From the NCBI GenBank assembly GCA_965249525.1, contig OZ252237.1:1316080-1380079 (forward strand): a stretch of 64,000 nucleotides of DNA, written 5' to 3'. The notes below the pieces were generated by a model that saw only the letters and a list, made by a program, of their open reading frames with translations, did not search any database and had not been told where the DNA came from. Shown in pieces: positions 1 to 64,000 of the stretch. A program made the translations under genes and the position numbers. This stretch comes from a bacterium (GTDB lineage: Bacteria; SAR324; JACQKK01). Each line of letters opens with the position of its first letter. The first letter of the stretch is position 1.

Positions 1-1
1 C

Positions 2-2380
2 TTTGTGGTGTTGTTTAGTCTCATCCTCAGCTTGGGCTTGCTGGTAGACAACGCCATTGTGGTGGTAGAAAACATCTTCCGTCATTTGCAAAGCGGGAAA
101 AGCCATCTTGAAGCAGCACGAACGGGTGTACAAGAAGTCGCCATGCCAGTGTTCACCTCCACCCTCACCACCTTGGCTGCTTTTGGACCCTTGATTTTTA
201 TGCCAGGCATCATCGGTGAGTTCATGTCTTACCTGCCACGCACCTTGATATTCACCCTCAGTGCCTCCTTGGTGGTGGGTTTAATCATCAATCCGGTGAT
301 GTGTTCCCGCTTTATGAAACGTCCACGACAAATTTTTAAGAATAAGGATGAATTAGCCAATCTGCATCAATCTCCTATGCTGCTGCGCTATCGGGGCATG
401 CTGGAATTTTGCCTGCAGCGCCGCAAGCGGGTGCTGCTGGGCGCAGTAGCCGCATTCTTTGGAGTGATTTTTCTGTATGGGGTGCTGGTGTTTTCTCGCA
501 AGGGGGTGGAATTCTTTCCCAAAACGGAACCAGAAAGCGCCACCATCACTGTCACTGCTGCCCCTGGTGCCAGCCTGGATGTATCTGATGGCTTAATGCA
601 AGAGGTGGAACACATGGTGAATTCGCACCAGGACAGCCTGGTAGCCTACCTAACCAATGTGGGGGGTGGTGCGCGCGGCAGCTCGGGCAGCCATGTCAGC
701 CAGTTGACCATGGAATTTCCTGGCTGGAAGAAATGGCTGCTGCGTCCCAGCAAGGTGCTGGAAAATCTGCGTACCAGAATTAAAGAAGTGGCAGGGGCGG
801 ATGTCAATATCCACCAAGAGGCTGCTGGTCCGCCCACTGGCAAGCCTGTGAACATTGAACTCAGCGGCAATAATTTGCAAAAAATGCTGGAAACCTCTGA
901 TGCCATCAAGCGGCGCATCGTAGATGTGCCGGGACTGGTAGACCTGGATGACGACTTTGAACGCGTCCGTCCTGAGGTGCAAGTGCGACTGGATAGAGAA
1001 AAAATCGCCCGTGCTGGCTTTTCCAGCCAAGAGGTAGGACGACTGATACGCACCGCCTTTAATGGACGCACTGTTTCTACCATGCGACGGGGGAAAGAAG
1101 AATTTGATATCGTGGTGCGCCTGGATGAACGCTTTCGCAACGATGTACAGAACATTTCAGACCTCTACCTGTTCACCAAAGCCGGCGAGCAAATAGCTTT
1201 AAGCGAGCTGGCAGAAATCACCACCGCCCCCGCATTGGGTTCCATCCGTCATGTAGAATTGGATCGTGTGATTACCATCTCTGGCGATGCCCAGGGATAT
1301 CCCGGACCCGTGGTGCTGCGCGGGGTTCGCAGCCGTCTTAACAACTTCCCACTGCCTGATAATTTCAACCTCCGCTACACAGGCGAAAACGAAAACCGCG
1401 AAGAAGCCCAAAGCTTCCTGGGAGAAAGCTTCCTGGTGGTGCTGTTTTTAATTTTCATCATTCTGGTGACCCAGTTCAATTCCTTCTATATTCCACTGAT
1501 TATTCTAAGTTCCGTGATGCTCTCCCTGATTGGGGTGTTCTTGGGACTCATCATCCACAACCGCCCATTCAGCATTATGATGGGCGGCATTGGAGTAATC
1601 TCCCTAGCGGGCATCGTGGTGAACAATGCCATTGTGCTGCTGGATTTCATCACCCAGCTGCAGCGCAAGGGCTATCACATTAAAGAAGCGGTACTCCTCA
1701 GCGGAATGGCACGCCTGCGTCCTGTGCTGCTAACCGCCATTACCACCGTACTGGGCTTGCTGCCAGTAGCCATGAGGGCAGAAGTTTCCCTGTTCAGCTG
1801 GCCGTTTATCACCTTTGGCAGCGAAAGCAGCACCTTTTGGGTGCCCATGTCCCTGGCTGTGATTTACGGACTCTCGGCAGCCACCGTATTGACACTGTTT
1901 TTTGTACCCACCCTATACATCACCATGGCGGAATCCACCTGGAGTCTGCGCTCGCTGCGACGGGCGCTCAATCCCCTGGTGCTGCTGGGCTGGCTGATGC
2001 AGCTGGCTGATGCCGACTATCGTCGCCAGTTACGCAGCCGTGTGGGACAGCTGCTGCTACGCCTGGTGGAATTCATCATAGAACTGCCATCATGGATAAA
2101 AAGCCTGCCCCAGCGGGCAAATCCCTATCTTATGTCAGCCCTTCACCAGGCCCAAAAACTCAACACCCAAGCCAGCAAAAAAGAAACCTGGCGGGCACTC
2201 TGGCAGCAATTGCGCCTGCTGCTGCAGCAACTCTTTGATTGGCTGCGACAAAAACTGCAAAAAGGGCTGCAAAAATCCACCGCAGCATACCAGAAAGCTT
2301 CCCACAAACCTCAGCGCAAATCTCAGCGCAAATCTCAGCGCAAACCCCAGCGCAAACCCCAGCAACAAGACAAAGACTAA
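2..2380 (+). CDS. RND efflux transporter permease (AcrB/AcrD/AcrF family), 5'-truncated by window edge
   Basis: GLLVDNAIVVVENI (TM4), GIVVNNAIVLLD (TM10) and RLRPVLLTA motifs; unusually long C-terminal tail ending in RKSQ/RKPQ repeats. Confidence 0.93.
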   Translation, partial: FVVLFSLILSLGLLVDNAIVVVENIFRHLQSGKSHLEAARTGVQEVAMPVFTSTLTTLAAFGPLIFMPGIIGEFMSYLPRTLIFTLSASLVVGLIINPVMCSRFMKRPRQIFKNKDELANLHQSPMLLRYRGMLEFCLQRRKRVLLGAVAAFFGVIFLYGVLVFSRKGVEFFPKTEPESATITVTAAPGASLDVSDGLMQEVEHMVNSHQDSLVAYLTNVGGGARGSSGSHVSQLTMEFPGWKKWLLRPSKVLENLRTRIKEVAGADVNIHQEAAGPPTGKPVNIELSGNNLQKMLETSDAIKRRIVDVPGLVDLDDDFERVRPEVQVRLDREKIARAGFSSQEVGRLIRTAFNGRTVSTMRRGKEEFDIVVRLDERFRNDVQNISDLYLFTKAGEQIALSELAEITTAPALGSIRHVELDRVITISGDAQGYPGPVVLRGVRSRLNNFPLPDNFNLRYTGENENREEAQSFLGESFLVVLFLIFIILVTQFNSFYIPLIILSSVMLSLIGVFLGLIIHNRPFSIMMGGIGVISLAGIVVNNAIVLLDFITQLQRKGYHIKEAVLLSGMARLRPVLLTAITTVLGLLPVAMRAEVSLFSWPFITFGSESSTFWVPMSLAVIYGLSAATVLTLFFVPTLYITMAESTWSLRSLRRALNPLVLLGWLMQLADADYRRQLRSRVGQLLLRLVEFIIELPSWIKSLPQRANPYLMSALHQAQKLNTQASKKETWRALWQQLRLLLQQLFDWLRQKLQKGLQKSTAAYQKASHKPQRKSQRKSQRKPQRKPQQQDKD
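2305..2363 (+). repeat. 12-bp tandem repeat x5 (CAAATCTCAGCG variants) encoding the RND C-terminal tail
   Basis: Direct reading; in frame. Confidence 0.9.
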
Positions 2381-2381
2381 G

Positions 2382-2470
2382 TCCGCTGCCCCGTCATCCG
2401 CTGCCCCGTCATCCGCTGCCCCGTCATCCGCTGCCCCGTCATCTACTGCCCCGTCATCCACTGCCCCGTC
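2382..2470. repeat. 15-bp tandem repeat x6 (TCCGCTGCCCCGTCA)
   Basis: Direct reading; starts just after the RND stop codon. Confidence 0.95.
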
Positions 2471-2493
2471 CCATTTGCCAGCATGCCTCCCCC

Positions 2494-3258
2494 GTGTCTC
2501 ACACCAACCTTCCAGCTTCGGATTCACCCCTGGCATCCCCTGCTGCAGCTTTCTCCCGCTTCTCCCGCCTCTCCTGGCGCAGGCTGGCATCCCGCATTTT
2601 TCTGCCGCGCTGCTGGGACTGTGGCAAATGGCTGAACAGGCCCGACAGTGCAGAACACTTTTTCTGTCACACCTGCTTTCACAACCTGCCCTGGCAAATC
2701 CAAGCCCCTCCCTTTTCTCAGCAGCTGAGTCTGGATGGCATCTGGTCGGGCTTTTTGTATCAATCACCTCTGCAAAACTGGCTGTGGAACTTAAAATACT
2801 ACCGCCAAGACCACCTTGCCCCGCTGCTGGGCTGGCTGCTGGCACAAGCATCTGCGCCTGTCCCCTCCCAGTCATTTGACCCCCAATTATTCGATTGGGT
2901 AATCCCCGTTCCCCTGCACCCCCGCCGCACCGCCTGGAGAGGATTCAACCAATCAGAACTGCTGGCAACCCACTGGCAGCGCAACCTGAAGCTAAAAAAC
3001 CCACCCCAAATCAACAAGCACCTGTTGCAGCGCATCCGATTCACCACCCCGCAAATGCAGCTTTCCTTAGCACAACGCAAGAAAAACATGCAGAACGCCT
3101 TCGCCCCCACAACACCCATCCCCAAGCTGCAGGGCAAAAAACTGCTGCTGCTGGATGATGTCTTCACCAGCGGCAATACCCTTGGTGCTTGTGCAGCCGT
3201 GCTTAAATCTTTGGGTGCAGAAACAGTCTGGGGATTAACCCTCAGCTGGAGACCCTAA
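2494..3258 (+). CDS. comF: ComF family protein (double zinc ribbon + phosphoribosyltransferase)
   Basis: CWDC...CHTC, PVPLH, RGFNQSELLA and LLLDDVFTSGNT motifs; start uncertain (in-frame GTG 2494 chosen because the upstream ORF part is repeat-derived). Confidence 0.85.
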   Translation: MSHTNLPASDSPLASPAAAFSRFSRLSWRRLASRIFLPRCWDCGKWLNRPDSAEHFFCHTCFHNLPWQIQAPPFSQQLSLDGIWSGFLYQSPLQNWLWNLKYYRQDHLAPLLGWLLAQASAPVPSQSFDPQLFDWVIPVPLHPRRTAWRGFNQSELLATHWQRNLKLKNPPQINKHLLQRIRFTTPQMQLSLAQRKKNMQNAFAPTTPIPKLQGKKLLLLDDVFTSGNTLGACAAVLKSLGAETVWGLTLSWRP

Positions 3259-3259
3259 C

Positions 3260-5968: not shown

Positions 5969-6063
5969 GGCTGTTACTGTATGGCTGTTACTGTATGGCT
6001 GTTACTGTATGGCTGTTACTGTATGGCTGTTACTGTATGGCTGTTACTGTATGGCTGTTACTG
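5967..6063. repeat. 14-bp tandem repeat x7 (ATGGCTGTTACTGT) filling the leuC-leuD gap
   Basis: Direct reading; the end copy overlaps the leuD start codon. Confidence 0.97.
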
Positions 6064-11931: not shown

Positions 11932-12006
11932 TCTGCCTCTCACCACAAAACCACCCTCTGAAACCCTCTTTTGGCATGCTGGGTAACCATATCGCAAAAA
12001 TCACCC

Positions 12007-13077
12007 ATGTCCTTTAAGCCCCACCTCAAACAAATCCCCGCCTACCAGCCTCCCCTGCAGAACAGAGATCCCCAAAAGCAGCTGCTGTTGGATTTCAACG
12101 AATCCACCATCCCGCCCTCCCCCCAAGTGATAACAGCCATCCAGAACGCCATCCAAGCCGACCGCCTGCGATGTTATCCCAACTATGGCGACCTCCAAGC
12201 AACCCTCGCCAACTACGCACAGGTTGCCCCAGAACAAATACTCTTCACCAACGGCGCAGATTCCGCCCTCGCCCTTATTACCCGTGCCTGCCTCAGCCCA
12301 GGCGATGAAGTCATCTTCCCCCAGCCCAGCTTCACCTTCATCGCCAATCTGGCACTCGGCTGCGGTGCAGCAGTGATAAGACCCCCATACCAAACCCCCG
12401 CACTCTCCTTTCCCAAAGAGCAAATCCTCAAAGCCATCAGCCCTCGCACCCAGCTGATAATGCTGGTACACCCCAACAACCCCACCGGCGACCTGCTAGA
12501 TACCCACTGGCTCCAACACCTGCTCTCCTCACATCCCCAACTCAGCGTTGCCGTGGATGAAACCTACTTTGAATTCTCACAACACACCACCCTTCCCCTG
12601 CTGCAAAAGCATGCCAACCTCATCATCGTGCGCAGTTTCTCCAAAGCCATGGCTATTGCCGGGCTGCGCTTTGGCTACCTGATTGCCCGCCAGGAAACCG
12701 TTAGCCAACTGGCAAAACTCTGCCCCCCTTACGATGTCAACATCCTGGCAGCAACCGCAGCCAAAGCCCTGCTTGACCACCCCCAAAGCTGGAGAAACTA
12801 TGTCAAAGAAGTCATGCAGCACAGTAAACCTCTGCTGGAAGCTTTCTTCTCCGAACACAACATCCCCTTCTCTCCCAGCCACGCCAACTTTCTGCTGTTC
12901 TGGCCCCGCAATCCCCAACAACTGCTGCTGCAGCTGGAACAGCAGCATATACTGCTAAGACCGCAGCCGCCTCCCATCCAACAAAGCCTCAGGGTTTCCA
13001 TCGGCAGCAGGGAGCAAATCAAACCCTTGCTGCAACAGCTGGCGTCACTGATTGCCCGCCATGAGTCCCACCAATAA
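12007..13077 (+). CDS. hisC: Histidinol-phosphate aminotransferase
   Basis: LDFNE, PNNPTG, VDETY and RSFSKAMAIAGLRFGY (PLP lysine) motifs. Confidence 0.9.
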   Translation: MSFKPHLKQIPAYQPPLQNRDPQKQLLLDFNESTIPPSPQVITAIQNAIQADRLRCYPNYGDLQATLANYAQVAPEQILFTNGADSALALITRACLSPGDEVIFPQPSFTFIANLALGCGAAVIRPPYQTPALSFPKEQILKAISPRTQLIMLVHPNNPTGDLLDTHWLQHLLSSHPQLSVAVDETYFEFSQHTTLPLLQKHANLIIVRSFSKAMAIAGLRFGYLIARQETVSQLAKLCPPYDVNILAATAAKALLDHPQSWRNYVKEVMQHSKPLLEAFFSEHNIPFSPSHANFLLFWPRNPQQLLLQLEQQHILLRPQPPPIQQSLRVSIGSREQIKPLLQQLASLIARHESHQ

Positions 13078-13107
13078 GCAGCTGAGTGCTAAGATGCTGC
13101 ACAGCAG

Positions 13108-14259
13108 CTAGGGCTGGTAAATATCGCTGTTGGGATGAAAGCGCAGCCAAGCGAAGGCAAAGTGAACACCGCTGTTGAGGGGTTGAAGCTGGGTGCGATT
13201 GAGCGACCCTTTGGTGGCTTTGCCCAGAAAGTTCCAGTGAGAGTTGGTTTGCGAGTCTATCCAGGATTTTCCTTGCTTGTTGGCGATTTGCTTAAAGACC
13301 AGCTTTTTGCCTTTGACGCTGCGCTTAAATGCTGCTGCTGCACCCACATTGCGAGACTTGTTGAAACTGGCGTTATCCACAGGTGAGGCCACCTCTGCTT
13401 GAAAAAACACCACGATGGGGGTATCACCCAGGGTGTCGTTAATCACCTGAGATTTGGCCAGCCGTGAAAAAGGATAAACTTTTTGGGAAGCGCCAACTTC
13501 CACCACCAGTACGCGTTCTTTGGCTGGCAGTCGCTTGCTGGGAATTTGATCCAGCAGGAAGGGTCGTTGGTTGGGGTCGCGGTCATAGCCGACATAGGGG
13601 TTGCGACCATAAGAGCGCAGGGAACCGGTCTCACGGCTGAGGATTTGCCCTTTGGGGAAGATCTGGGCGAAGGTCTGAAAAGATACCACAGGTGCGGGGA
13701 TTTGTTTGAGTTTGCTGCCTGTGAGGCTGCCCACGATGGCTTCGCCTGTGATTTGCTGCCACCAGGATTCCGTTTGTCTATCCCACATGACGAGGTCGCT
13801 GCCGCGCAGTTTGCCAGTGGTGCCAAAGTCCAGCACGCGGCTGCCCAGACGGCGGTCAAACGCCAGGGCGCTGTTGCAAAGTGGACAGTAGGTAACCGAG
13901 ATGGGTTGACCGTCTACGGTGTCATTGACAATTTCGTGCCAGATAAGAATTTGCAGCGGATAGGCGCGCTGGGTTTTGCTGCCTTGAAACACCATGACGG
14001 GTTCTCTTGGACTCAGCCATTTTTTTGCTAGGGAGACAGTAACAAAGCGGGGGGTGTCAATGGGAGGAATACCGTCCTTGGGGGGTCCGCCAGAAATAAT
14101 TTCTTCCAGCGGAATGGAATGCTTGGCAAAATTGGTGCGCGGCCATTCACGCTTGAGGGAAGAGGTGACCTCCACCGACCAAGCTGAAGTAGCCAGCAGT
14201 AGGGCAAGAACCGCAAGGAATCCCTGGCGCATGAAGGGGAGGAAACAATGTTTGAACAT
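13108..14259 (-). CDS. DUF3179 domain-containing exported protein
   Basis: SGGPPKDGIPPID, HEIVND, YCPLCNS, DRQTESWWQQ and FAW motifs; signal peptide. Confidence 0.88.
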   Translation of the reverse strand: MFKHCFLPFMRQGFLAVLALLLATSAWSVEVTSSLKREWPRTNFAKHSIPLEEIISGGPPKDGIPPIDTPRFVTVSLAKKWLSPREPVMVFQGSKTQRAYPLQILIWHEIVNDTVDGQPISVTYCPLCNSALAFDRRLGSRVLDFGTTGKLRGSDLVMWDRQTESWWQQITGEAIVGSLTGSKLKQIPAPVVSFQTFAQIFPKGQILSRETGSLRSYGRNPYVGYDRDPNQRPFLLDQIPSKRLPAKERVLVVEVGASQKVYPFSRLAKSQVINDTLGDTPIVVFFQAEVASPVDNASFNKSRNVGAAAAFKRSVKGKKLVFKQIANKQGKSWIDSQTNSHWNFLGKATKGSLNRTQLQPLNSGVHFAFAWLRFHPNSDIYQP

Positions 14260-14469: not shown

Positions 14470-16011
14470 CTAAAAGCGCGGGGCGCCTAGGGAACGATTG
14501 ATGAGGTCACGAATACGCTCCCTGAGATCTGGCGTGGGGGCAATAGCTTCTGCACGGAAAAGCAGCTGCTGGATATCTACCCGGTCAATAACACCGCTGG
14601 CGATTGCTTCTTCGGCGAAATTTGCCAATCTTTGGGGCAGAGTGGCGATGAGGCGATCCCGTTGTTCCAGGGCAGTTGCAAGTTCCAAATCGTTAGAGGA
14701 GAAGCGAGCGGCTTCTAGGAAATTGAGCAAGGCGGAGAGTTCCAAATCAAAGCGATCCACGCCAATCTTGGCAGAGGCTTCATCTATTTGGCCTAAGCCA
14801 GTGCGCATGTGTTCGCTGTAGCGTTGGTTGTCGCGGAAGGCTTCAAGCGATGGTTCAGTACGGAACACCTGCTGCTGCTTGCGAAATTTTTCTGCTTCTT
14901 CCAGTACTTGCGGGTCAAACACCGTGAGGTCTTCCAGTTGGGTGAACACAAACCGTACGGTGCTTCCCCTGACTTGCACATAGGGGGGAGTGGTGAAAAA
15001 TTGCGGATCCAGCCTAGCAACCAGCAATAAACGGTTGGGGTGTTCGGGATGTTTTTCCAGGTGCAGATTCTCCAAAAAACCCAGCCTTCTTATGCTGCCA
15101 ATCTTTCTTCTAAAAGAAACATTGGGCAAAACGATCTCCAAAAAGAAAGAAGTATTCAGTGCATCCAGTAAGATTCCGCGCCGTTCACGCACTTGAAAGC
15201 GATAGTGCTGAGGACTCAATTTCACCGGTTCGGCATATTGCAATTCCAAGCCAAACTGAGACACCCGCTTGCCCAGCTGCGGTCTCACAGGCAGCACCCG
15301 CATACTCTCCAAGCGGTTGACTTCATGCACCACATTCTGCGCACCCCTGGTTTCCCCTAAACCAGATGATGATAAAATATTGTACGCCTGACGAAAGCTA
15401 ACCAATTCACGATCCCCATTGCTAAGCTCCAACACATATTGATGGCGATAACCATGGGCATCATAGCTTTTCTCCAAGCGCAGCACCTCTACCAAGTTAA
15501 AACTGCGCAAGCCAAACAAAACCACCTCTCCAGCCAGCACATCCTCCCCCTCATACACCTTGGCATACACCGAAGAACTCAGCACCAAAGACACAAACTT
15601 GTTTTTATCCAATACATCAAAACGATTGCTTTCCAGTTGCGGAAATATCAAGGCACGATTGCCAGACAACACCAAGTCCCCGTTTTGACTCCATCTCCTC
15701 AAAGTATGCATATCCCACAATTGAGACCCCGTCTGTTCCAGCAGCACCCGCAACACATACCCTTCCCGTCTGCCACCTCCCTCAATCGCTATCCCACGCA
15801 CCAACCGCCCCCGAAATGATGCATTCTCCAACAACCCTGACATCCGCAGGGCAGTATCTCGCTGCATCCTGCGTGGCAAACTGCCCAATTGCTGGGAGCG
15901 CACCATCACCACCATGGCTGCCAGCAACAACCACACACATATGACAACCCGCAACCAATGCTTCAGCCTCCACATCATAGGCTTCCATCCTCTTGCAAAA
16001 ACCACTAACAA
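14470..16011 (-). CDS. Hypothetical exported/membrane-anchored protein
   Basis: 513-aa ORF with an N-terminal hydrophobic segment; no family recognised. Confidence 0.7.
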   Translation of the reverse strand: MLVVFARGWKPMMWRLKHWLRVVICVWLLLAAMVVMVRSQQLGSLPRRMQRDTALRMSGLLENASFRGRLVRGIAIEGGGRREGYVLRVLLEQTGSQLWDMHTLRRWSQNGDLVLSGNRALIFPQLESNRFDVLDKNKFVSLVLSSSVYAKVYEGEDVLAGEVVLFGLRSFNLVEVLRLEKSYDAHGYRHQYVLELSNGDRELVSFRQAYNILSSSGLGETRGAQNVVHEVNRLESMRVLPVRPQLGKRVSQFGLELQYAEPVKLSPQHYRFQVRERRGILLDALNTSFFLEIVLPNVSFRRKIGSIRRLGFLENLHLEKHPEHPNRLLLVARLDPQFFTTPPYVQVRGSTVRFVFTQLEDLTVFDPQVLEEAEKFRKQQQVFRTEPSLEAFRDNQRYSEHMRTGLGQIDEASAKIGVDRFDLELSALLNFLEAARFSSNDLELATALEQRDRLIATLPQRLANFAEEAIASGVIDRVDIQQLLFRAEAIAPTPDLRERIRDLINRSLGAPRF

Positions 16012-16026
16012 ACCTTCTTCCCCTAC

Positions 16027-16653
16027 TTAAGACGCATCCCCCAACTCAATCAGTATATCCACTTCCTTAGGCAAACTATCCTTGGCTGCCCGCAATATCA
16101 ATTGCTCTCCTTGCACCGCCTCAGCTATCAACAATGCAGCCCGCAAAAAACCTGCCCTATACCGCACCAACTGCTTCTTATGCCTAAGCTTCCCCTCTGA
16201 TAATCCCGTTACGCGCACTTGCATCCCCACCCGCTTGTCCAATGAAACCGAAGCCTCTCGCTCCAATAATAACTGCAGCTTTAACGTCCGTTCACGACTG
16301 CCCCTAGTACCCAACACCCTCACCCGCACCTCTGTCGGCTGATACGGACGCTTCAACAACACGCCACCGCTGCTGGCAGGCACCCCATATGCCAGCCCTT
16401 GTCCTCCCAAAGCCTCCCCTACCAACGGAGAAGCCCGATAACCCTTAATATGTGCTTGCTCCTTCTCCTGCTTCCCCTTATCCTGCTTCCCCTTATCCTG
16501 ACCCCAAACCACAGAACCCCACATCACAACCACTACTATCCATATCCCCATGGTTAGGGCAACCACACACACCCGTTGCAAGATAGTCGCCGCCTTTATC
16601 TCACGGAAACTCTCATGACCTGATATTCCACAGATACTCTTTGCTCGTTTCAT
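16027..16653 (-). CDS. Membrane-anchored protein, possible LytR C-terminal-like domain
   Basis: TM segment then VRVRVLG...VRYRAGFLRAALLIA...VDILIELG pattern resembling LytR_C; start uncertain. Confidence 0.5.
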   Translation of the reverse strand: MKRAKSICGISGHESFREIKAATILQRVCVVALTMGIWIVVVVMWGSVVWGQDKGKQDKGKQEKEQAHIKGYRASPLVGEALGGQGLAYGVPASSGGVLLKRPYQPTEVRVRVLGTRGSRERTLKLQLLLEREASVSLDKRVGMQVRVTGLSEGKLRHKKQLVRYRAGFLRAALLIAEAVQGEQLILRAAKDSLPKEVDILIELGDAS

Positions 16654-17049
16654 CACGCACTCCCTGTTTTGTTGTTGAATCGTACAGCTGTAAAGACAAG
16701 CATCATCCATGCCTCCCAGCCTTAGCTTCATAAAGAACAAGCAGCCATTAGACTCAAAAGGGAAAACAAGCTTAGAACCCTTCTATCTTAGCGCAATTTC
16801 CTGTTTTCCTACAGCACCTGCACCAAAACACCTGCACCAAAACACCAGCCCTGCAACCATACCCACTTGTCCTATACCAATTCTGGACACAGCTCCGCCA
16901 GAATCCAGATAGCCTGCAATATGCACAGAACACGCCAATTTGCCATCAGAAAGCATTCAGGTAATAATAACCCAAAGTAGCTTGTACTAGTCCATCCTTT
17001 ACTATTGATGGCTTGCATCAAGATCCATCCCAGACCCTTGTCCGATGCC

Positions 17050-18306
17050 ATGAAAGACCCTGCTGCCGAACCTGCTGCCAAACCTGCTGCCAGCCCGTAT
17101 AGCGAGATACGTTGCCCCAACTGCAGCTTTTTGTATCGGGTGCCCACCGATACTTTGCGCTCCCGCCGCCGCCTGCGATGCAGCAACTGTTCGCATGTCT
17201 TTCCTTCTGCCCTTCACCCTGATGCCCCCTCTCCTCCAGCAGCAGAATCCAGCACTCCACAGCAGCAGCCCCCTAAATCTTTGTTCATTTCCCCCGAAAA
17301 AGAACAAGCTTATCTCAGTGCCGTGGAATTCAGCGGTGATGATGAACAGAGCTTCTTTGAAAAAGTCCCCGACCATAAACTCCAACAAATTTTTATGCCC
17401 AGCCCAGAACAAACCCCAGACCCAAAACCACCCCCCAGCACCCCCATCCCCTCCACAGCTGCCCCCCCGCCCACAGACAGCAGCAAACATCCCGATACGC
17501 AAGAATCCCAGATGGAACAGCTGGCTAACTGGACCACCTCCCAGGCCAGCACCGCTTCAAAAACCGCTAAAGAATGGTCGGATGTCTTCTCTTATCCCGG
17601 CCAAAACGACTCCGATCATCCTGACTTCCCTGCAGCATCCTCCCTACAACACGCAAAAAAATCTCGTCGCAACATGGTTTTAGGTGCAGTCGCTTTGTTC
17701 TTGGCTATTGCTGCTATGGTGAGCGCCTGGGGATTCTGGCTAATCCCGCCACCAGCTGAATCGCAGGCAAACACCTTGTTCACCCTGAAACATTGGCCAC
17801 AAGGAGAAGTGATAAAAACGCAGCAAAATAAGCAGCTGCTGGTCATCAACGGTTCTATCACCCATCATGCAAAATCTTCACAAAATCTCTCCTCCATGCG
17901 GTTGGCTGCTGTGGTATTCACCGGCGCCCCTCCAAAAATCAAGCACCATACTGCCTTTGGCTGGGCTGGACCCACCTTGTCCCCACAGCAGTTGAGAAAC
18001 CTGCACACTTTCCAAACACTGATATGGCAAAACAGCAAAGAAACACAGCTGAAAGCCAGTAAAAAACTCCCCCCAGAAAAGCCCATCCCCTTCCAGCTGG
18101 TACTCAAAAAACCCTTGAAGCCCATTTCCTTTTTAGAAATAGAAGTACTGGAATACACTCTGGGAGACCAACGGGTTCAGCTAAAAAGCCAGTACCTCTC
18201 TCTCCCTCAACAATACTTGCACGCCCTCCACTTGCAGTACTACACCGTGGCACAATACACAATTCGACTACTGGACAAATTTCAACGACTGTTACCGCAG
18301 TCTTAG
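17050..18306 (+). CDS. Zinc-ribbon (MJ0042-type) / DUF3426-like membrane protein
   Basis: IRCPNC...LRCSNCSHVF, Pro-rich linker, single TM, periplasmic beta domain (LLVINGSI...IPFQLV). Confidence 0.8.
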   Translation: MKDPAAEPAAKPAASPYSEIRCPNCSFLYRVPTDTLRSRRRLRCSNCSHVFPSALHPDAPSPPAAESSTPQQQPPKSLFISPEKEQAYLSAVEFSGDDEQSFFEKVPDHKLQQIFMPSPEQTPDPKPPPSTPIPSTAAPPPTDSSKHPDTQESQMEQLANWTTSQASTASKTAKEWSDVFSYPGQNDSDHPDFPAASSLQHAKKSRRNMVLGAVALFLAIAAMVSAWGFWLIPPPAESQANTLFTLKHWPQGEVIKTQQNKQLLVINGSITHHAKSSQNLSSMRLAAVVFTGAPPKIKHHTAFGWAGPTLSPQQLRNLHTFQTLIWQNSKETQLKASKKLPPEKPIPFQLVLKKPLKPISFLEIEVLEYTLGDQRVQLKSQYLSLPQQYLHALHLQYYTVAQYTIRLLDKFQRLLPQS

Positions 18307-18422
18307 CGGGGCAGTATGCTTAGCAGATATGTGCAGATTTATTGAGATGAAAAGGGATGCTTTTAAGAGAAAGCTGTGGCAAGTTTAGTTGTGGGCTGTT
18401 TGTTGTGCGGCATGCAAAGGTT

Positions 18423-18891
18423 CTGGTGTAAGGGGTTTGCTGGAAGCGGCTGGTAGGGGGCTTGCCTGGTAAGGGGTTTGCCTGGTAAGGGCTGGTAAGG
18501 GGTTTGCTGGAAGCGGCTGGTAGGGGGCTTGCCTGGTAAGGGGTTTGCCTGGTAAGGGGTTTGCCTGGTAAGGGCTGGTAAGGGGTTTGCTGGAAGCGGC
18601 TGGTAGGGGGCTTGCCTGGTAAGGGGTTTGCCTGGTAAGGGGTTTGCCTGGTAAGGGCTGGTAAGGGGTTTGCTGGAAGCGGCTGGTAGGGGGGCTTGCA
18701 TGGTAAAGGCTGGTAAGGGGTTTGCTGGAAGCGGCTGGTAGGGGGGCTTGCATGGTAAAGGCTGGTAAGGGGTTTGCTGGAAGCGGCTGGTAGGGGGGCT
18801 TGCATGGTAAAGGCTGGTAAGGGGTTTGCTGGAAGCGGCTGGTAGGGGGGCTTGCCTGGTAAAGGCTGGCAAGGGCTGGTAAGGGGTTTGC
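18423..18891. repeat. Composite G-rich satellite (~470 bp) built from CTGG-initiated 10-17-bp modules
   Basis: 7 copies of CTGGAAGCGG spaced 67, 83, 83, 52, 52, 52 bp apart, interleaved with CTGGTAAGGGGTTTG(C) and CTGGTAGGGGGCTTGC. Confidence 0.97.
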
Positions 18892-18971
18892 TTTAGAAGG
18901 ACTTGCAACAGGTTTGCTGGAAGTGGCAAAAGGGTAGCTTTAAGAATTATTTTGACGCCAGGAGGCTTGCA

Positions 18972-23655: not shown

Positions 23656-23700
23656 AACTTGATAGAAAAATCCTAGCCCCAGCTTGTCTCAGCTTGACCC

Positions 23701-24216
23701 ATGCCCGCCTCCCTTGCCCATTCTTCATTTCCCCCGCCTTCGCAAAGCGTACAGGTGGGCTGTTCAGCACAGCTGCCCGCACCTCCCATCTCTATGCCGC
23801 ATTTGCAGCTAATCACCCAAGGATTGCTGCAAGAGTTGGATTTGCTGGGAGGTGGACTTTCGCTATGGCTGGATACAGATGCTGGCATGCGTCAATTGAA
23901 TCAAACCTGGCGCCAGCAGCCAGCAGCCACCGATGTGCTTTCCTGGCGCTATTGGGAAGCATCGCCTGCGGAGTGTGCCTGCAGCGGTGGTCTGCTGGGG
24001 GAGGTGGCTATCTCGTTAGAATCTGCACAACGCCAGGCGGTTGTTTATGGCTGGAGTTGGCAAACAGAAATCCTGCGCCTGCTGGTGCATGGCTGCACCC
24101 ATGTGGCAGGCTATCATCACAGCACCCCTGGGGCTGCCCGCATCATGCGTGAGCAAGAAATGCTGCTGCTGGCTTCGCTAGGATTAACCTTGGACCAAAA
24201 GGACAGTAAAAGTTGA
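23701..24216 (+). CDS. ybeY: rRNA maturation endoribonuclease YbeY
   Basis: LN..WR....TDVLS, LGEVAIS and HGCTHVAGYHH motifs. Confidence 0.88.
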   Translation: MPASLAHSSFPPPSQSVQVGCSAQLPAPPISMPHLQLITQGLLQELDLLGGGLSLWLDTDAGMRQLNQTWRQQPAATDVLSWRYWEASPAECACSGGLLGEVAISLESAQRQAVVYGWSWQTEILRLLVHGCTHVAGYHHSTPGAARIMREQEMLLLASLGLTLDQKDSKS

Positions 24217-44537: not shown

Positions 44538-44599
44538 GCTACACAGCCCACCTGTTATTTTTCTTCCCCTCTCCCTTCATCATCACCTCCCAGGTTTTC

Positions 44600-45000
44600 T
44601 AACACAAAACCTGTGTATATTACTAGATAAAAGATAACAAATAAAATCCAAATTATTAGAAAAGTTTTTTATTAAATGCTCGCATAAAAATAAGAAAAAT
44701 CCTATGCATACTTATCCAAGAAATCCATACTGTTGACTTTGACTGCATCCATATCTGGTGTGTATTTTTTCACTATTACAAGCATAGGTTCTTTGGTTTT
44801 TCTTTTTATATCAACCATTTAGAAAACATCCCTCTCTGGGCAAGCCTCCGTGGCTGGCCCTGCTGCCAAGCTGCAAAAAGGTGACCTGGGTAAAGAAACA
44901 AAAATCCTTATGAGAACAAACAACAAGGGAATTATGCAAAAAGTTTTTACAAATTCTTCTTGAAAATCTAAAATGTTTTATGACAAACTACATTCTAGTT
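44600..45000. other. AT-rich non-coding tract
   Basis: Long A/T runs, no ORF; lies between divergent rsgA and the 45453 ORF. Confidence 0.7.
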
Positions 45001-45052
45001 GGACAAACGGGTGTCTCTAGCATCTGTTGTTTTTATAAGTGCTGTGCCTGGT

Positions 45053-45224
45053 GCATGCAATGCCGAGCATGAGAAGCCGAGCATGAAATGTCGTGCATGA
45101 GATGCCGAGCATGAAATGTCGTGCATGAGAAGCCGAGCATGAAATGTCGTGCATGAGATGCCGAGCATGAAATGTCGTGCATGAAATGTCGTGCATGAGA
45201 TGCCGAGCATGAAATGTCGTGCAT
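45053..45224. repeat. 14-bp tandem array x12 mostly alternating GCATGAAATGTCGT and GCATGAGAWGCCGA
   Basis: Direct reading. Confidence 0.97.
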
Positions 45225-45452
45225 TCAATACTGTGCCGTAGTGCAGTTGCCGATACGCTCCTTTGTCCATCTGCTGTATCCTTCTAGCGCAATAAACAGC
45301 AACGCCAGCCAAGGAATACTGCAAAGAAAATCCTATCTCCATTGCGGGTATGGTTGCCCGTAGGCGGAAGTTTGCCAACTTTCGGGTGGGGGTTTTTGCC
45401 AAAAATACGCAGCTAGTGTGCTGTTTTACTAAGAAGCCGAGGACTGGTCTCT

Positions 45453-52482: not shown

Positions 52483-52644
52483 TGAATGCAACCAGTCTGA
52501 ATAAAACAATGCTGAATGGATAAACACCACAGTAACACATCAGTGTGGCATGCAGACAAACAGGCTTGCAAACATTTTCTCTGGAAATGATACGGTTGAG
52601 TCCACAAACTGTATTATGATAGAAAACCACACGGAGAGAGACCG

Positions 52645-53865
52645 ATGAAAAATACATTATGGACAGGTGATAATCTGTATGTTCTGCACGGGATGAACAG
52701 TGAAACTGTTGATCTGATTTACCTTGATCCGCCTTTCAATACTAACAGGATATTTGCAGCACCTTTGAAAAATAAGGAGTCAAAGGTGGTGTTTGAGGAT
52801 ATGTGGACTTGGCAAAAAGTAGATAAATATCACTTAGAAGAATTAGCAGGTGATTACCCATCTATTTTTGCTTTTATTCAATCAGTAATGGGGATACACG
52901 GTAAGTCGATGGCAGCCTACCTCATCTACATAGCGCAAAGATTAGTAGAAATGAAAAGAGTCCTTAAAAGTACAGGCAGCATCTACCTACACTGCGATCC
53001 TACTGCTAGCCATTACCTAAAATTATTGATGGATGAGATATTTGGGAAGAGTAATTTTAGGAATGAGATTGTGTGGTGCTATCGTGGTGCGGGTTACCCC
53101 AAAAAAGATTTTGGAAAACGACATGATATTATATTCAAATACTCCAAAGAGGATTCGTATATTTTTAATTTAGATGATGTTAGAGACGAATATGCAGAAA
53201 CCACCAAAGAAAGATTCAAACATTTTATAGGCAACAAAAGATATGGCAAGGATTTTGGTGTCCAAAAATTGAATCCCAAAGGCCGTCATCCTGATGATTG
53301 GTGGCAAATACAGCCAATAGCACCTTCTGCGAAAGAAAGAACTGGGTACCCAACACAAAAGCCTCTCAAACTTTTATACCGTATTATTAAAGCATCTAGT
53401 AATGAGGAAGATATAGTGCTTGACCCCTTTTGTGGATGTGCAACCACCTGCGTAGCAGCTCAACAGTTAGGCAGAAAGTGGGTAGGGATAGATGTAGCCA
53501 AAGAGTCAGCTGATCTGGTGGCAGATAGATTAGCAGATGATGCGGGTTTATTTAAGGACTTCGTGCATAGATATGATCTTCCAAAAAGAACAGATGTTGA
53601 AAAAATAGAAGAAACAAAAACAGTTAAAGAAAGATTATTCAAGGATCAAAATGGCACATGCAATGGTTGCAAAAGAAAGATGGAGATCTATGATTTTGAA
53701 ATAGATCACATTGTACCACGAGCAAAGGAGGGCGGAGACTACTACGAAAATTATCAGTTGCTATGCCCAAAATGTAATAGGGATAAGGGAACAAAAACGA
53801 TGGCATATTTACTAATGAAAGTGGAGACCAGAAAGAAATTGCTAATAGAAGAAATATCTTTTTGA
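52645..53865 (+). CDS. DNA amino-methyltransferase (beta class) fused to a C-terminal HNH endonuclease
   Basis: IYLDPPF, YPTQKP and DPFCGCATT, followed by CNGC...IDHIVP...GG....N.QLLC..CN..KG; AT-rich. Confidence 0.92.
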   Translation: MKNTLWTGDNLYVLHGMNSETVDLIYLDPPFNTNRIFAAPLKNKESKVVFEDMWTWQKVDKYHLEELAGDYPSIFAFIQSVMGIHGKSMAAYLIYIAQRLVEMKRVLKSTGSIYLHCDPTASHYLKLLMDEIFGKSNFRNEIVWCYRGAGYPKKDFGKRHDIIFKYSKEDSYIFNLDDVRDEYAETTKERFKHFIGNKRYGKDFGVQKLNPKGRHPDDWWQIQPIAPSAKERTGYPTQKPLKLLYRIIKASSNEEDIVLDPFCGCATTCVAAQQLGRKWVGIDVAKESADLVADRLADDAGLFKDFVHRYDLPKRTDVEKIEETKTVKERLFKDQNGTCNGCKRKMEIYDFEIDHIVPRAKEGGDYYENYQLLCPKCNRDKGTKTMAYLLMKVETRKKLLIEEISF

Positions 53866-61511: not shown

Positions 61512-61525
61512 AGTGCTTACTCCTT

Positions 61526-63398: not shown

Positions 63399-63480
63399 GC
63401 TCTCTCCATCCTTGGAAACACGTAGCTAACCACACCTCCAAAGGCTCATAAGAATAAGCTTATCTGGAGGGGAAATTATT

Positions 63481-63520
63481 TTTCATTCATAAAAAATGAA
63501 ATAGTTTTTCATGAATGAAA
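63481..63520. promoter_or_regulatory. Inverted repeat TTTCATTCAT-N20-ATGAATGAAA (operator or hairpin candidate)
   Basis: Perfect 10-bp arms with inner AAAAA/TTTTT; abuts the -10 element of the predicted MTase promoter. Confidence 0.55.
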
Positions 63521-63547
63521 CATATCATGATAAGATTAGGTTGTCAA
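63519..63547 (-). promoter_or_regulatory. Putative sigma70 promoter for the MTase-endonuclease pair
   Basis: Minus strand TTGACA-N17-TATGTT with extended TGn. Confidence 0.6.
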
Positions 63548-63575
63548 GTTTTTTTCATAAAAAAAAGAGGTAGTC

Positions 63576-64000
63576 ATGCAAGATCGGGTGTTGTTGGTGT
63601 ATGGCAGCCAGTGGTGGCTGGTGCGTCGGGAGGCGAAGCATTTTTCACAAAGGGTGCTGGGGGATGCGCCTGTGGATTTTGCTTTGCAGCAATTTGATAT
63701 GGGGGAGTTATTGATGGGACAGCGCGGGATGGGAGAGGGGGTGGAGAAATTGGAGGCAGCTTTGCGGAATAGACCTTTGTTGTGTGAGTGCTATTTGGTG
63801 AGATTGGATGGGGTTGAGCGTTTGAAGGCCAGCGGTGCGGGGAGTGAAGTGGGGCGGGGTGTGTTGCAGGTGTTGGGGGAGGTATGGGGGAATATGCCTG
63901 CGGGGCTGCATGTGCTGTTGACAGGGCGTGCCACAGGAGAGGGGGAGTTGAGCAAGCCTTTGTTGAGGGAAGTGCGCAAACGGGGAGTAGGTCGGGTGGT
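63576..64000 (+). CDS. holA: DNA polymerase III delta subunit (N-terminal part, runs off the window)
   Basis: Own translation, absent from the ORF track: MQDRVLLVYGSQWWLVRREAKHFSQRVLGDAPVDFALQQFD...NRPLLCECYLVRLD; GAGG RBS upstream; HolA-like by eye. Confidence 0.6.
   Translation, partial: MQDRVLLVYGSQWWLVRREAKHFSQRVLGDAPVDFALQQFDMGELLMGQRGMGEGVEKLEAALRNRPLLCECYLVRLDGVERLKASGAGSEVGRGVLQVLGEVWGNMPAGLHVLLTGRATGEGELSKPLLREVRKRGVGRV

What the first reader, a model, noticed from the sequence alone, without database searches (positions are those of the whole stretch)
1..64000. Kilobase-scale sawtooth G/C strand skew, independent of gene orientation
Seen: the + strand repeatedly starts G-rich, drifts to C-rich over about 2-6 kb, then resets, mostly near intergenic gaps (about 13.1, 18.4, 21, 27.1, 30.2, 42, 45.0, 47.6, 51.25 and 63.55 kb). 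Hand counts of selected 60-nt lines: dnaG 19201-19260 G29/C9 vs 20221-20280 G8/C30; selA 42601-42660 G29/C10 vs 43321-43380 G7/C30; hisC 12241-12300 G10/C28 vs 13141-13200 G23/C12; 63841-63900 G33/C4. The skew changes within single genes. The 5' ends of divergent ilvA(-) and hisC(+) are both C-rich on +, so transcription direction does not explain it. It also appears to bias proteins (Gly/Val/Glu-rich RsgA and HolA; Pro/His/Gln-rich HisC). Established: bacterial chromosomes normally keep one skew sign per replichore, with the C-to-G jump at oriC. Inference: each sharp C-to-G jump has origin-like polarity, suggesting many dispersed, reused sites of replication initiation or restart, or another localized strand-asymmetric mutational process.
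Basis: partly seen in the sequence, partly recalled or inferred. Interest (0 to 1): 0.88.

Follow-up and report, generated by a model that had tools for sequence, protein, structure and literature searches.

The report
Gene-scale G-to-C sawtooth strand skew
In this small bacterial genome most genes and tight operons start G-rich and end C-rich on their coding strand, giving a kilobase sawtooth that follows gene boundaries rather than replication origins and has no bacterial precedent that I could find.

Summary
All seven hand counts are exact. Across the whole 1.72-Mb genome, 500-bp G/C skew varies three times more than chance (SD 0.20 vs 0.063).

It is not evidence for many replication origins. 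The chromosome has one ordinary origin-terminus skew (about +-0.05). The sawtooth rides on it with the same polarity in both replichores.

Teeth are bounded by intergenic gaps. On the coding strand, genes and tight operons run from G-rich (5') to C-rich (3'). Such a gradient is its own reverse complement, so + and - genes look alike on the + strand. 548 of 760 genes of at least 900 bp follow it (16 of 25 in the window).

At fourfold sites G is swapped for C while A and T stay put. The replichore skew, by contrast, also moves T and A. Protein composition shifts too.

The pattern is present in both species of this reduced-genome genus and in none of 19 other genomes sampled from the class.

The cause is unresolved. 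I favour a transcription-unit-anchored strand bias in G:C-pair substitution (0.4). The main rival is selection on transcript C-versus-G content, which Rho reads (0.3). Four literature searches found no bacterial precedent; fungi show the mirror image.

The parts
1..64000 (.). Whole window: kilobase patches of strong G or C excess on the + strand, riding on a mean of about -0.12 (C-rich replichore)
   Evidence: In the window, 16 of 25 genes of at least 900 bp have a 5' third more G-rich than the 3' third on the coding strand. 13 of 24 gap-bounded blocks of at least 900 bp decline on the + strand.
13050..13110 (.). Sharp C-to-G jump (+0.44) at the 30-bp convergent junction between the hisC stop (13077) and the stop of the gene at 13108-14259
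14470..16740 (-). Two tightly linked minus-strand genes forming one tooth: + strand +0.10 at the left end, -0.43 at the right end (coding strand G-rich at 5', C-rich at 3')
18296..18902 (.). Largest jump in the window (+0.85), in the gap upstream of dnaG
18450..18875 (+). G-rich tandem repeat array (units of 16, 52 and 83 bp) that inflates the skew of this stretch and interrupts short-read contigs
   Evidence: contigs end at 18457 and resume at 18826
18903..20828 (+). dnaG: G-rich first part, C-rich last part, with the switch near 19988 (-0.46)
   Evidence: G minus C per 90 bp runs from +12..+28 down to -9..-30.
21046..25979 (+). Three-gene block (HDIG protein, ybeY, aspS) following the jump at about 21153 (+0.45), with a shallow decline
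42024..43529 (+). selA: G-rich middle, then a sharp switch to C-rich at about 43026 (-0.55)
44538..45452 (.). 915-bp divergent gap holding a jump (+0.63 near 44720-44850) and a 14/28-bp tandem array at 45053-45224
63399..63575 (.). Divergent gap with a jump (+0.55); the gene starting at 63576 has G33/C4 in 63841-63900
11971..13077 (+). hisC, an exception: C-rich on its coding strand from start to end (-0.41 to -0.31)
28654..30060 (-). Dihydrolipoyl dehydrogenase gene, an exception: G-rich on its coding strand throughout (+0.29, +0.27)
52645..53865 (+). AT-rich (GC 0.37-0.39) methyltransferase-HNH gene with no G-to-C decline (+0.14 to +0.32)

Best explanation
What it is (shown): a genus-specific polarity of G versus C at the scale of transcription units, laid over an ordinary single-origin replication skew.
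- A tooth is a run of genes with no real intergenic gap between them.
- On the coding strand it begins G-rich, from about 100 nt before the start codon. It ends C-rich, until about 50 nt after the stop codon, and crosses zero near the middle.
- Such a gradient is its own reverse complement. On the + strand, plus and minus genes therefore both read G-rich on the left and C-rich on the right, and every gap between units becomes a sharp C-to-G step.
- Chemically it is an exchange of G for C with A and T untouched. It is strongest at synonymous sites, weaker at codon positions 1 and 2, and strong enough to change protein composition.

How it most likely works (inferred, not shown): a strand-asymmetric substitution bias acts on G:C pairs and is coupled to transcription. 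Pairs with C on the coding strand are lost or flipped faster near the start of a unit. Pairs with G on the coding strand are lost or flipped faster near its end. The simplest form is two opposed effects that fade over about 1 kb from the two ends of each unit. One would be tied to polymerase entering from the promoter side. The other would be tied to the far end: read-in or antisense transcription, or the positive supercoiling ahead of polymerase. The bias appeared in the ancestor of this genus, together with genome reduction and a fall in G+C from 52-70% to 44-50%.
For: - Metagene, 754 genes of at least 300 aa: coding-strand skew at codon position 3 falls from +0.19 to -0.17, position 1 from +0.15 to 0.00, position 2 from -0.08 to -0.17. 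The fall is seen in all four combinations of gene strand and replichore, with the replichore adding only an offset of about +-0.1.
- Zero crossing scales with gene length. End values at position 3 grow from about +-0.1 (600-900 bp) to about +-0.25 (1.5 kb and longer) and then saturate.
- 548 of 760 genes of at least 900 bp have the 5' third more G-rich than the 3' third. Among 466 genes of at least 1200 bp the G-then-C class outnumbers C-then-G 88 to 6.
- + strand steps at junctions: divergent +0.21; convergent +0.14; tandem with a gap over 60 bp +0.10 to +0.17; tandem overlapping or within 10 bp -0.025 and -0.001; mid-gene control -0.059.
- Correlation of skew across a junction: 0.71 for tight tandem and 0.68 within genes, against 0.06, 0.15 and -0.26 across gaps over 60 bp.
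- Tight pairs, including 19 convergent ones, behave as one tooth.
- 75% of 485 gap-bounded blocks of at least 1250 bp decline on the + strand, against 50% (maximum 53%) for 20 random shifts of the block coordinates.
- The skew starts about 100 nt upstream of start codons and ends within about 50 nt after stop codons; gap centres are near zero.
- The base changes differ from the replication skew and are the same in the sister species: last minus first fifth at fourfold sites is A -0.007, C +0.085, G -0.076, T -0.002.
- The G-for-C exchange is similar in every codon box and neighbouring-base context.
- The same pipeline gives a flat profile in 19 other genomes of the class.
- Orthologues in the two species (median 64% amino-acid identity) keep their pattern: gradient r = 0.70 over 147 pairs.
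Against: - Known transcription-linked damage (cytosine deamination on the exposed strand) should raise T where C falls. At fourfold sites T and A do not move in either species. The mutational route would have to be G:C to C:G transversions or a finely balanced mix. The shift at twofold sites (G/(G+A) 0.44 to 0.29; C/(C+T) 0.36 to 0.47) then needs amino-acid replacements or transitions as well.
- Convergent gaps, which should hold no promoters, give steps as large as divergent ones (-0.165 to +0.114 against -0.110 to +0.104). Sense transcription alone cannot be the source.
- rpoB-rpoC, expected to be highly expressed, runs the other way at its start (position-3 skew -0.64 in the first fifth).
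- Position within a block explains only about 8% of the variance of 250-bp skew. Gene means vary widely (SD 0.149). In the window itself only 13 of 24 blocks decline.
- No RNA data exist to place transcript ends; units are inferred from gaps between genes called by my own simple caller.
- None of the 12 candidate families searched differs in a genus-specific way.
Confidence: 0.4

Rival explanations
1. Selection, or a selection-like fixation bias, acts on the C-minus-G content of the transcript. RNA from the first half of a unit is G-rich and C-poor and so a poor Rho substrate. RNA from the second half is an uninterrupted C>G stretch and so Rho-prone. Because the pattern is self-complementary, an RNA entering a unit from either side becomes Rho-prone only as it nears the far boundary.
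For: - The variable that changes is exactly C versus G, with A and T neutral, in two species of different base composition.
- Any synonymous route that lowers G or raises C is used: fourfold sites swap G for C, twofold sites shift G to A and T to C.
- The log-odds shifts are modest, about +0.4 for C and -0.3 for G (my arithmetic on the frequencies). From my own knowledge, this is the size usually attributed to codon-bias selection.
- The share of 78-nt windows with C>G on the coding strand rises from 0.31 to 0.61 along genes, and from 0.35 to 0.65 along their antisense RNAs. It is flat at 0.43-0.47 in relative G009.
- Passages read in PMC6144790: 28 of 32 tested regions without C>G bubbles gave no Rho termination in vitro; all tested templates with bubbles longer than 78 bp did; G-rich motifs were among the explanatory variables.
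- rho and nusG are present.
- The crude scan finds no excess of hairpin-plus-T terminators: 28 against 25.6 +- 5.2 in shuffles.
Against: - The C gain shows no preference for a preceding pyrimidine, which Rho's YC-binding cleft would favour: +0.11 after C, +0.10 after T, +0.09 after G.
- The untranslated parts, where Rho can actually load, are less skewed than the coding ends. The 5' leader is +0.05 to +0.08 against +0.13 inside the gene. C excess stops about 50 nt after the stop codon, short of the 60-80 nt that Rho needs.
- A kilobase-long gradient is not what a local signal requires.
- Relatives carry the same rho and nusG without the pattern, and G009 shows no terminator excess either.
- rpoB starts C-rich.
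Confidence: 0.3
2. Each gap between units is a repeatedly used start point of bidirectional DNA synthesis (replication restart, R-loop-primed or nick-primed long-patch synthesis). The strand made away from the gap becomes G-rich, as at an origin.
For: - Every jump has origin polarity, in both replichores.
- All four gap types act as sources, convergent ones included.
- Tight junctions with no gap give no jump, even between convergent genes.
- End values that grow with tooth length and then saturate fit sources whose effect fades over about 1 kb.
- A polymerase other than the replisome could have its own error spectrum.
Against: - The base changes differ from the genome's replication skew: no T/A component.
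- The chromosome-wide skew shows a single origin and terminus.
- The skew switches within about 50 nt after stop codons and about 100 nt before start codons, not at gap centres, which are near zero.
- No common motif at the 120 strongest jumps. The best k-mer, GGGAGA, is in 35 of 120 against 63 of 622 control gaps and resembles a ribosome-binding site.
- Jump flanks are not AT-rich: G+C is about 0.48 and 0.45.
Confidence: 0.1
3. Artefact or by-product: a chimeric assembly with small inversions, tandem repeats, G-runs, amino-acid composition, or chance.
For: - One of the strongest stretches (18450-18875) is a G-rich tandem array.
- Genes for membrane proteins are more G-rich at position 3: whole-gene +0.16 for 4 or more predicted helices against -0.035 for none. 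This fits the preference for CTG and GTG codons.
Against: - Independent contigs are colinear, with 0 differences across the jumps.
- Reading frames with full-length family matches run through the sign changes (dnaG, selA).
- Only 10% of up-jumps have a tandem array within 300 bp, against 15% of all gaps.
- Runs of four or more G are as expected from composition: 1461 against 1450.
- The gradient is present in every fourfold codon box.
- It is absent from 19 control genomes run through the same scripts.
Confidence: 0.02

Closest known systems
[quoted passage not shown]
   Same: The coding strand has opposite G/C bias at the two ends of genes, with intermediate values in the middle. Fourfold sites are affected, amino-acid usage differs between gene ends, and the bias extends into flanking untranslated DNA. 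That paper also leaves mutation versus adaptation open.
   Different: The sign is reversed: fungi are C-biased at 5' and G-biased at 3'. Those are eukaryotic Pol II genes, whereas here the unit is a bacterial gene or tight operon. Here the trait is confined to one genus among those sampled. The passages I read mention bacteria only for replication skew and C-avoidance.
Replication-associated GC skew of bacterial replichores (established knowledge; measured here)
   Same: Each C-to-G step has the polarity of an origin and each G-to-C transition that of a terminus.
   Different: The scale is 1-4 kb instead of about 800 kb. Boundaries are tied to gene boundaries. The polarity is the same in both replichores. 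There is no T/A component at fourfold sites, while the genome's own replichore skew has one.
N-domains ('factory-roof' skew) of mammalian genomes
   Same: Sharp upward jumps followed by roughly linear declines.
   Different: As I recall, those are megabase domains bounded by mapped replication origins and include a T-versus-A component. Here the teeth are gene-sized, the end values grow with tooth length up to about 1.5-2 kb, and only G and C take part.
C>G bubbles of Rho-dependent terminators (Nadiras et al. 2018, PMC6144790; passages read)
   Same: The same compositional variable (C over G on the non-template strand) with a start-to-end logic along a transcription unit.
   Different: Known signals are local (about 80 nt) and lie in ribosome-free RNA. 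Here the gradient spans whole units, shows no YC preference, and is weaker in the untranslated ends.
Skew gradients along vertebrate mitochondrial genomes, attributed to time spent single-stranded (recalled; not read here)
   Same: An approximately linear change of strand skew with position at synonymous sites.
   Different: As I recall, that gradient involves transitions (C to T, A to G), so T and A move with it, and it spans one replication unit. Here the skew reverses sign within each gene and leaves A and T unchanged.

Membership tests
Replication origin/terminus skew switches | The + strand switches from C-rich to G-rich at the site | tested here: met
   236 up-jumps of at least 0.4, with the same polarity in both replichores
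Replication origin/terminus skew switches | Same base-change signature as the genome's own leading/lagging asymmetry (G and T rise together) | tested here: not met
   Leading minus lagging at fourfold sites: T +0.035, A -0.019. Along genes: T -0.005, A -0.017 in G000 and T -0.002, A -0.007 in G001.
Replication origin/terminus skew switches | Position set by replication signals rather than by gene boundaries | tested here: not met
   173 of 236 jumps lie in gaps or within 100 bp of a gene end. From the gap share and the 1365 genes, I estimate these zones cover about 29% of the genome. No jump at tight junctions. No shared motif.
Replication origin/terminus skew switches | DNA synthesis actually starts there | not testable with these tools
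   Needs marker-frequency or nascent-strand sequencing
Uniform transcription-associated strand asymmetry (coding versus template strand) | Skew sign follows gene strand over the whole gene | tested here: not met
   Gene strand explains R2 = 0.006; the sign reverses within genes
Uniform transcription-associated strand asymmetry (coding versus template strand) | Boundaries coincide with transcription units | tested here: inconclusive
   Resets occur at gaps over 60 bp and not at tight junctions, and the skew spans about -100 to +50 nt around reading frames. But units are inferred from gaps; no RNA run is listed.
Uniform transcription-associated strand asymmetry (coding versus template strand) | Strength scales with expression | not testable with these tools
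   No expression data. The one presumably highly expressed long operon examined (rpoBC) does not follow the rule.
Fungal-type opposite 5'/3' gene skews | Opposite G/C bias at the two ends of genes, intermediate in the middle | tested here: met
Fungal-type opposite 5'/3' gene skews | Coding strand C-biased at 5' and G-biased at 3' | tested here: not met
   Here it is G-biased at 5' (+0.19) and C-biased at 3' (-0.17) at position 3. Fungal sign as stated in the abstract.
Fungal-type opposite 5'/3' gene skews | Affects fourfold sites and amino-acid usage, and extends beyond the reading frame | tested here: met
Rho-type C>G signal along transcription units | Non-template strand C>G towards the end of the unit and G>C at its start | tested here: met
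   Share of 78-nt C>G windows rises from 0.31 to 0.61 along genes; flat in control G009
Rho-type C>G signal along transcription units | Enrichment of YC dimers beyond what base composition gives | tested here: not met
   C gain at fourfold sites is the same after C, T and G (+0.11, +0.10, +0.09)
Rho-type C>G signal along transcription units | C-rich stretch of 60-80 nt in ribosome-free RNA downstream of the stop codon | tested here: not met
   On average the C excess ends within about 50 nt after the stop
Rho-type C>G signal along transcription units | Rho and NusG present | tested here: met
   they are also present in relatives that lack the pattern
Rho-type C>G signal along transcription units | Termination at unit ends depends on Rho | not testable with these tools
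   Needs Rho inhibition plus mapping of RNA 3' ends

The most novel reading that the evidence does not exclude
The skew is an evolved, genome-wide, two-way termination code. Every gap-bounded transcription unit is written so that an RNA entering from either side is Rho-proof (G over C) for the first half and an uninterrupted Rho-loading substrate (C over G) for the second half. Sense and antisense transcription alike are thereby confined to one unit, in a compact, heavily rearranged genome that shows no excess of hairpin terminators.
Probability: 0.2. Interest if true: 0.85.

Novelty: new variant of a known kind. Interest (0 to 1): 0.78.

Why it matters
Strand skew in bacteria is read almost entirely as a record of replication, and tools that place origins or infer gene inversions from skew rely on that. 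In this genome a gene-scale process leaves a signal several times stronger than replication, which explains only 7% of local skew variance. That signal changes protein composition along every gene.

If the cause is mutational, it reveals a transcription-unit-anchored, G:C-pair-specific asymmetry unlike deamination-type damage. If it is selective, it would be the first genome-wide compositional code for where transcripts may end.

Either way, the genus and its unaffected relatives form a natural contrast for the unresolved question raised by the mirror-image pattern in fungi. The pattern is also a practical warning: in such genomes, local skew switches are not evidence of origins, inversions or misassembly.

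Tried and rejected
- RNA evidence: no RNA holder is listed for the stretch, so transcript ends and antisense transcription could not be examined.
- Rfam: no family reaches its gathering score in the window.
- The search for related loci with DnaG returned only two distant metagenome bins (39-40% identity) and nothing useful about the organism.
- Candidate genes that might have been lost in the genus:
  - Present in G000 and G001 and in the three relatives searched: mfd, rho, RNase HI, UDG, topA, mutS, mutL, nusG.
  - dnaA was searched in G000 and G001 only. It is present but scores 202-207 bits against a cut-off of 343.9.
  - Y-family polymerase: not found in G000, G001 or G009, so not genus-specific.
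  - mutY: over the cut-off in G000 but not in G001.
  - recG: over the cut-off in none of the five genomes.
- Motifs: k-mers of 6-8 around the 120 strongest jumps, compared with 622 other gaps, gave nothing convincing.
- G-quadruplex or G-run idea: GG dinucleotide ratio 0.99, and G4+ runs 1461 against 1450 expected.
- Tandem repeats as the cause of the jumps: no association.
- Membrane-protein genes as supercoiling anchors: the gradient is only slightly larger (0.33 against 0.23), and the main difference is a codon-composition offset.
- Promoter and terminator consensus scans: no excess over shuffles in the window or in relative G009, so uninformative.
- Changed neighbours between the two species. 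Correlation of the first third drops from 0.81 (33 pairs with both neighbours conserved) to 0.52 (65 pairs with the upstream neighbour changed). The gradient stays correlated (0.65-0.68). My neighbour criterion is strict, so this is suggestive only.
- Okazaki-fragment sawtooth, rejected by reasoning: it would give the same polarity in both replichores, but it could not change sign or exceed about twice the replichore mean. Observed local values reach +-0.2 to 0.5 against a mean of +-0.05.

Full report

Yes.

In the window, 500-bp GC skew ranges from -0.50 to +0.55. The window is positions 1,316,080-1,380,079 of a single 1,724,560-base contig. Over that whole genome:
- The SD of 500-bp skew is 0.20, against 0.063 expected from sampling.
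- 13% of windows exceed |0.3|.
- Autocorrelation turns negative at about 1.25-2.25 kb and is only faintly positive at 3-4.5 kb. There is a characteristic length but no strict period.

The sawtooth shape holds without any annotation:
- Left-right differences have skewness of about +0.4 in both replichores.
- 48 sampled positions have steps above +0.7 and none has a step below -0.7.
- 111 distinct up-jumps of at least 0.5 stand against 59 down-shifts.

Inside the window the asymmetry shows only in the largest steps: at the 0.4 threshold it is 8 up against 8 down.

The sequence is not a misassembly. Contigs from two samples of one study are colinear with zero differences across jumps and down-shifts. 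Contigs of a strain with about 3-4 differences per 100 bases, from another study, are colinear too. Full-length dnaG and selA reading frames run straight through the sign changes.

**2. The chromosome replicates in the ordinary way, as far as skew can tell.**

- Cumulative skew has one minimum (1,716,538) and one maximum (925,378).
- Replichore means are +0.049 and -0.060.
- A full-length but divergent DnaA gene lies at 24,138-25,457.
- Replichore explains 7.4% of the variance of 500-bp skew and gene strand explains 0.6%.

**3. What the teeth are.**

I called genes with a simple codon-model caller: 1365 genes of at least 80 aa covering 87% of the genome. Shorter genes are missed and starts are taken as the longest frame.

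*The gradient.* On the coding strand of the 754 genes of at least 300 aa:
- Skew at codon position 3 falls steadily from +0.19 in the first tenth to -0.17 in the last.
- Position 1 falls from +0.15 to 0.00 and position 2 from -0.08 to -0.17.
- The fall is the same for + and - genes in both replichores. Replication adds only an offset of about +-0.1.

A sequence that starts G-rich and ends C-rich is its own reverse complement in composition. On the + strand, genes of either orientation therefore read G-rich on the left and C-rich on the right, and every boundary between them is a C-to-G step.

*How general it is.*
- The zero crossing follows the gene centre. End values grow with length and saturate near +-0.25 at position 3.
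- 548 of 760 genes of at least 900 bp follow the rule (16 of 25 in the window).
- Among 466 genes of at least 1200 bp, G-then-C outnumbers C-then-G 88 to 6. But 165 are flat and 58 rise.

*The unit is the stretch between real intergenic gaps, not the reading frame.*
- Mean + strand steps: +0.21 at divergent junctions; +0.14 at convergent ones; +0.10 to +0.17 at tandem junctions with gaps over 60 bp; about zero (-0.025, -0.001) where tandem genes overlap or lie within 10 bp.
- Skew is as correlated across tight tandem junctions (0.71) as within genes (0.68). It is uncorrelated or anticorrelated across gaps over 60 bp.
- Pairs of abutting genes behave as one tooth whether they are ++, -- or convergent (19 pairs).
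- 173 of 236 up-jumps lie in a gap or within 100 bp of a gene end, in all four gap types. 119 of 153 down-shifts lie inside genes and peak mid-gene.
- On average the skew begins about 100 nt before start codons and ends within about 50 nt after stop codons. Gap centres are neutral. That is what transcript boundaries would look like, but no RNA data are available.
- 75% of 485 gap-bounded blocks of at least 1250 bp decline on the + strand, against 50% (at most 53%) for 20 random shifts of the same blocks.

**4. How much this rule leaves unexplained.**

- Position within a block accounts for only about 8% of 250-bp skew variance.
- Gene means differ widely (SD 0.149).
- In this window only 13 of 24 blocks decline.
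- Clear exceptions in the window are hisC (C-rich throughout), the dihydrolipoyl dehydrogenase gene (G-rich throughout) and an AT-rich methyltransferase-HNH gene.
- rpoB starts strongly C-rich.
- Part of the gene-to-gene spread is codon context. CTG and GTG are the preferred Leu and Val codons, so genes for membrane proteins are G-rich at position 3.

**5. The chemistry of the change.**

At fourfold-degenerate sites of genes of at least 1200 bp (about 27,000 sites per fifth), from the first to the last fifth:
- C rises from 0.257 to 0.365.
- G falls from 0.285 to 0.199.
- A (0.215 to 0.198) and T (0.243 to 0.238) hardly move.

The same holds in every codon box and for every neighbouring base. 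It also holds in the sister species, which has a different base composition: A -0.007, C +0.085, G -0.076, T -0.002.

Twofold sites shift as well: G/(G+A) goes from 0.44 to 0.29 and C/(C+T) from 0.36 to 0.47.

By contrast, this genome's replication asymmetry at fourfold sites has the classical form in which T rises with G: leading minus lagging is A -0.019, C -0.058, G +0.042, T +0.035. The sawtooth is therefore a different process from the replication skew.

It is not a matter of G-runs or of tandem repeats.

It does reach the proteins. The last fifth relative to the first has less Trp (0.73), Val (0.80) and Gly (0.83), and more Gln (1.35), Asn (1.24), His (1.21) and Pro (1.17). The trend is the same in the sister species and absent in two relatives.

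**6. Who has it.**

The same scripts were run on fetched stretches.
- The only other species of the genus (G001; 1.6 Mb; 400 kb examined) shows it fully: SD 0.17-0.19, position-3 fifths +0.21 to -0.12.
- None of 19 other genomes of the class shows a gradient:
  - G009, G008, G020;
  - G002, G006;
  - 14 genomes of other families, including four other small genomes of 1.5-2.4 Mb.

Two of those small AT-rich genomes have a raised SD (0.16) but no intragenic decline. For most of these genomes only 20-60 kb were examined.

The genus differs from its family in genome size (1.6-1.7 against 2.3-5.2 Mb) and in G+C (0.44-0.50 against 0.52-0.70 in the stretches read).

Orthologues in the two species (258 reciprocal pairs; median 64% identity; 147 of at least 900 bp) keep their individual patterns (gradient r = 0.70). 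This holds despite heavy rearrangement of gene order.

**7. Mechanism.**

Shown: the anatomy, the boundaries, the G-for-C nature, the independence from replication, and the taxonomic restriction.

Inferred: the cause. The profile is antisymmetric about the centre of each unit and fades over roughly 1 kb from its two ends. That calls for two opposed effects, one anchored at each end.

*Favoured reading (0.4).* A transcription-coupled strand bias in the substitution of G:C pairs. One effect would be tied to polymerase entering from the promoter side. The other would be tied to the far end, through read-in or antisense transcription or the positive supercoiling ahead of polymerase. In the twin-domain picture (my own reasoning, not tested here), mean torsional state is itself linear and antisymmetric along a unit.

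In line with this, 3' ends facing a convergent gap are about twice as C-rich as 3' ends in tandem arrangement (-0.165 and -0.114 against about -0.07). However, 5' ends do not differ between divergent and tandem arrangement.

The weakness of this reading is the spectrum. Ordinary exposure damage would move T and A, and they do not move.

*Main rival (0.3).* Selection on the C-minus-G content of transcripts. This explains the A/T neutrality naturally. It matches the one bacterial system known to read that variable: Rho needs uninterrupted C>G stretches and is blocked by G-rich RNA (passages of PMC6144790). Coverage by 78-nt C>G windows rises from 0.31 to 0.61 along genes, and equally along their antisense RNAs.

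Against it:
- There is no YC preference.
- The untranslated ends are less skewed than the coding ends.
- The gradient is kilobase-wide.
- Relatives have the same rho and nusG but no pattern.

They do not fit the spectrum, the placement of the switches at stop and start codons, or the single-origin chromosome skew.

*Candidate genes.* None of the 12 candidate families searched differs in a genus-specific way.

**8. Comparison with what is known, and novelty.**

The closest described pattern is the opposite 5'/3' skew of genes in unicellular fungi (PMC3315797; abstract and passages read). It shares the sign reversal, the effect on fourfold sites and amino acids, and the extension into flanks. 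It has the opposite sign and concerns eukaryotic genes.

Four full-text searches brought up no report of such a pattern in a bacterium:
- GC skew, intragenic, gradient, bacterial genomes, transcription;
- GC skew, within genes, coding strand, operon, bacteria, fourfold;
- GC skew, transcription units, R-loop, bacterial, non-template strand;
- Rho-dependent termination, C-rich, G-poor, GC skew, along genes.

These searches cover open-access papers and bioRxiv only, and I looked only at the listings apart from the two papers named. Supplementary files were not consulted.

I rate it a new variant of a known kind (gene-scale strand asymmetry). It is surprising in a bacterium because of its strength, its G-for-C purity and its restriction to one genus.

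Noticed in passing
window 2305-63318 (for example 5967-6063, 11560-11651, 18450-18875, 37930-38068, 45053-45224, 47410-47500): The window is littered with short-period tandem repeats (units mostly 11-23 bp, each array with its own unit), many in gaps or at gene ends. Genome-wide there are 231 arrays, clustered at 0.3-0.6 Mb and 1.0-1.5 Mb and absent near the origin. 89 of 96 fully genic arrays have a period divisible by 3, against 57 of 128 intergenic ones. They are not linked to the skew jumps.
   Followed up: partly
G000 whole genome; window 51313-52530: There is no gene-strand bias: 353 + against 352 - genes in one replichore and 357 against 302 in the other. Classic operons are broken up. 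The L3 gene stands apart from an S10 operon, next to S20. rpoB has a divergent ribF upstream instead of rplJL. Gene order differs heavily between the two species of the genus.
   Followed up: partly
window 34357-35241, 52645-53865, 62319-63398: Three adenine DNA methyltransferase genes lie within 64 kb, one fused to an HNH nuclease domain of the Cas9/IscB type. Two sit in AT-rich stretches (GC about 0.36-0.45) that look recently acquired and lack the G-to-C decline.
   Followed up: no
window 58404-59369: RNase HII fused to a YraN-family (endonuclease-like) domain in one 321-aa frame.
   Followed up: no
G001:C1:261288-271494: Four fragments matching only the last 40 residues of RNase H, each with an internal stop, spaced about 3.1-3.5 kb apart and downstream of the intact gene at 255696-256100. 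This suggests a repeated segment.
   Followed up: no
G000, G001, G009, G008, G004 (whole genomes): No true recG in any of the five family genomes; the best hits are the mfd gene. No Y-family polymerase in G000, G001 or G009. mutY is over its cut-off in G000 but not in G001. The second MutS-like hit seen in the three relatives is missing in both species of the genus.
   Followed up: partly
G000:C1:60870-66728: A 1952-aa protein with UvrA-interaction and ABC domains, about twice the usual UvrA length. It shows one of the cleanest gradients: position-3 skew +0.49, +0.45, +0.01, -0.28, -0.56 by fifths.
   Followed up: no
G000 whole genome: G+C varies regionally from about 0.465 near the origin to about 0.537 at 1.2-1.28 Mb. 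The GC-richer regions are also where the tandem repeats cluster.
   Followed up: no
G009 (360-760 kb of contig 4) and G008: Relatives carry as many tandem arrays per 100 kb (11-13) but with long periods (median 54-67 bp). The arrays cover 3-4% of the stretches read. Their nature was not examined.
   Followed up: no
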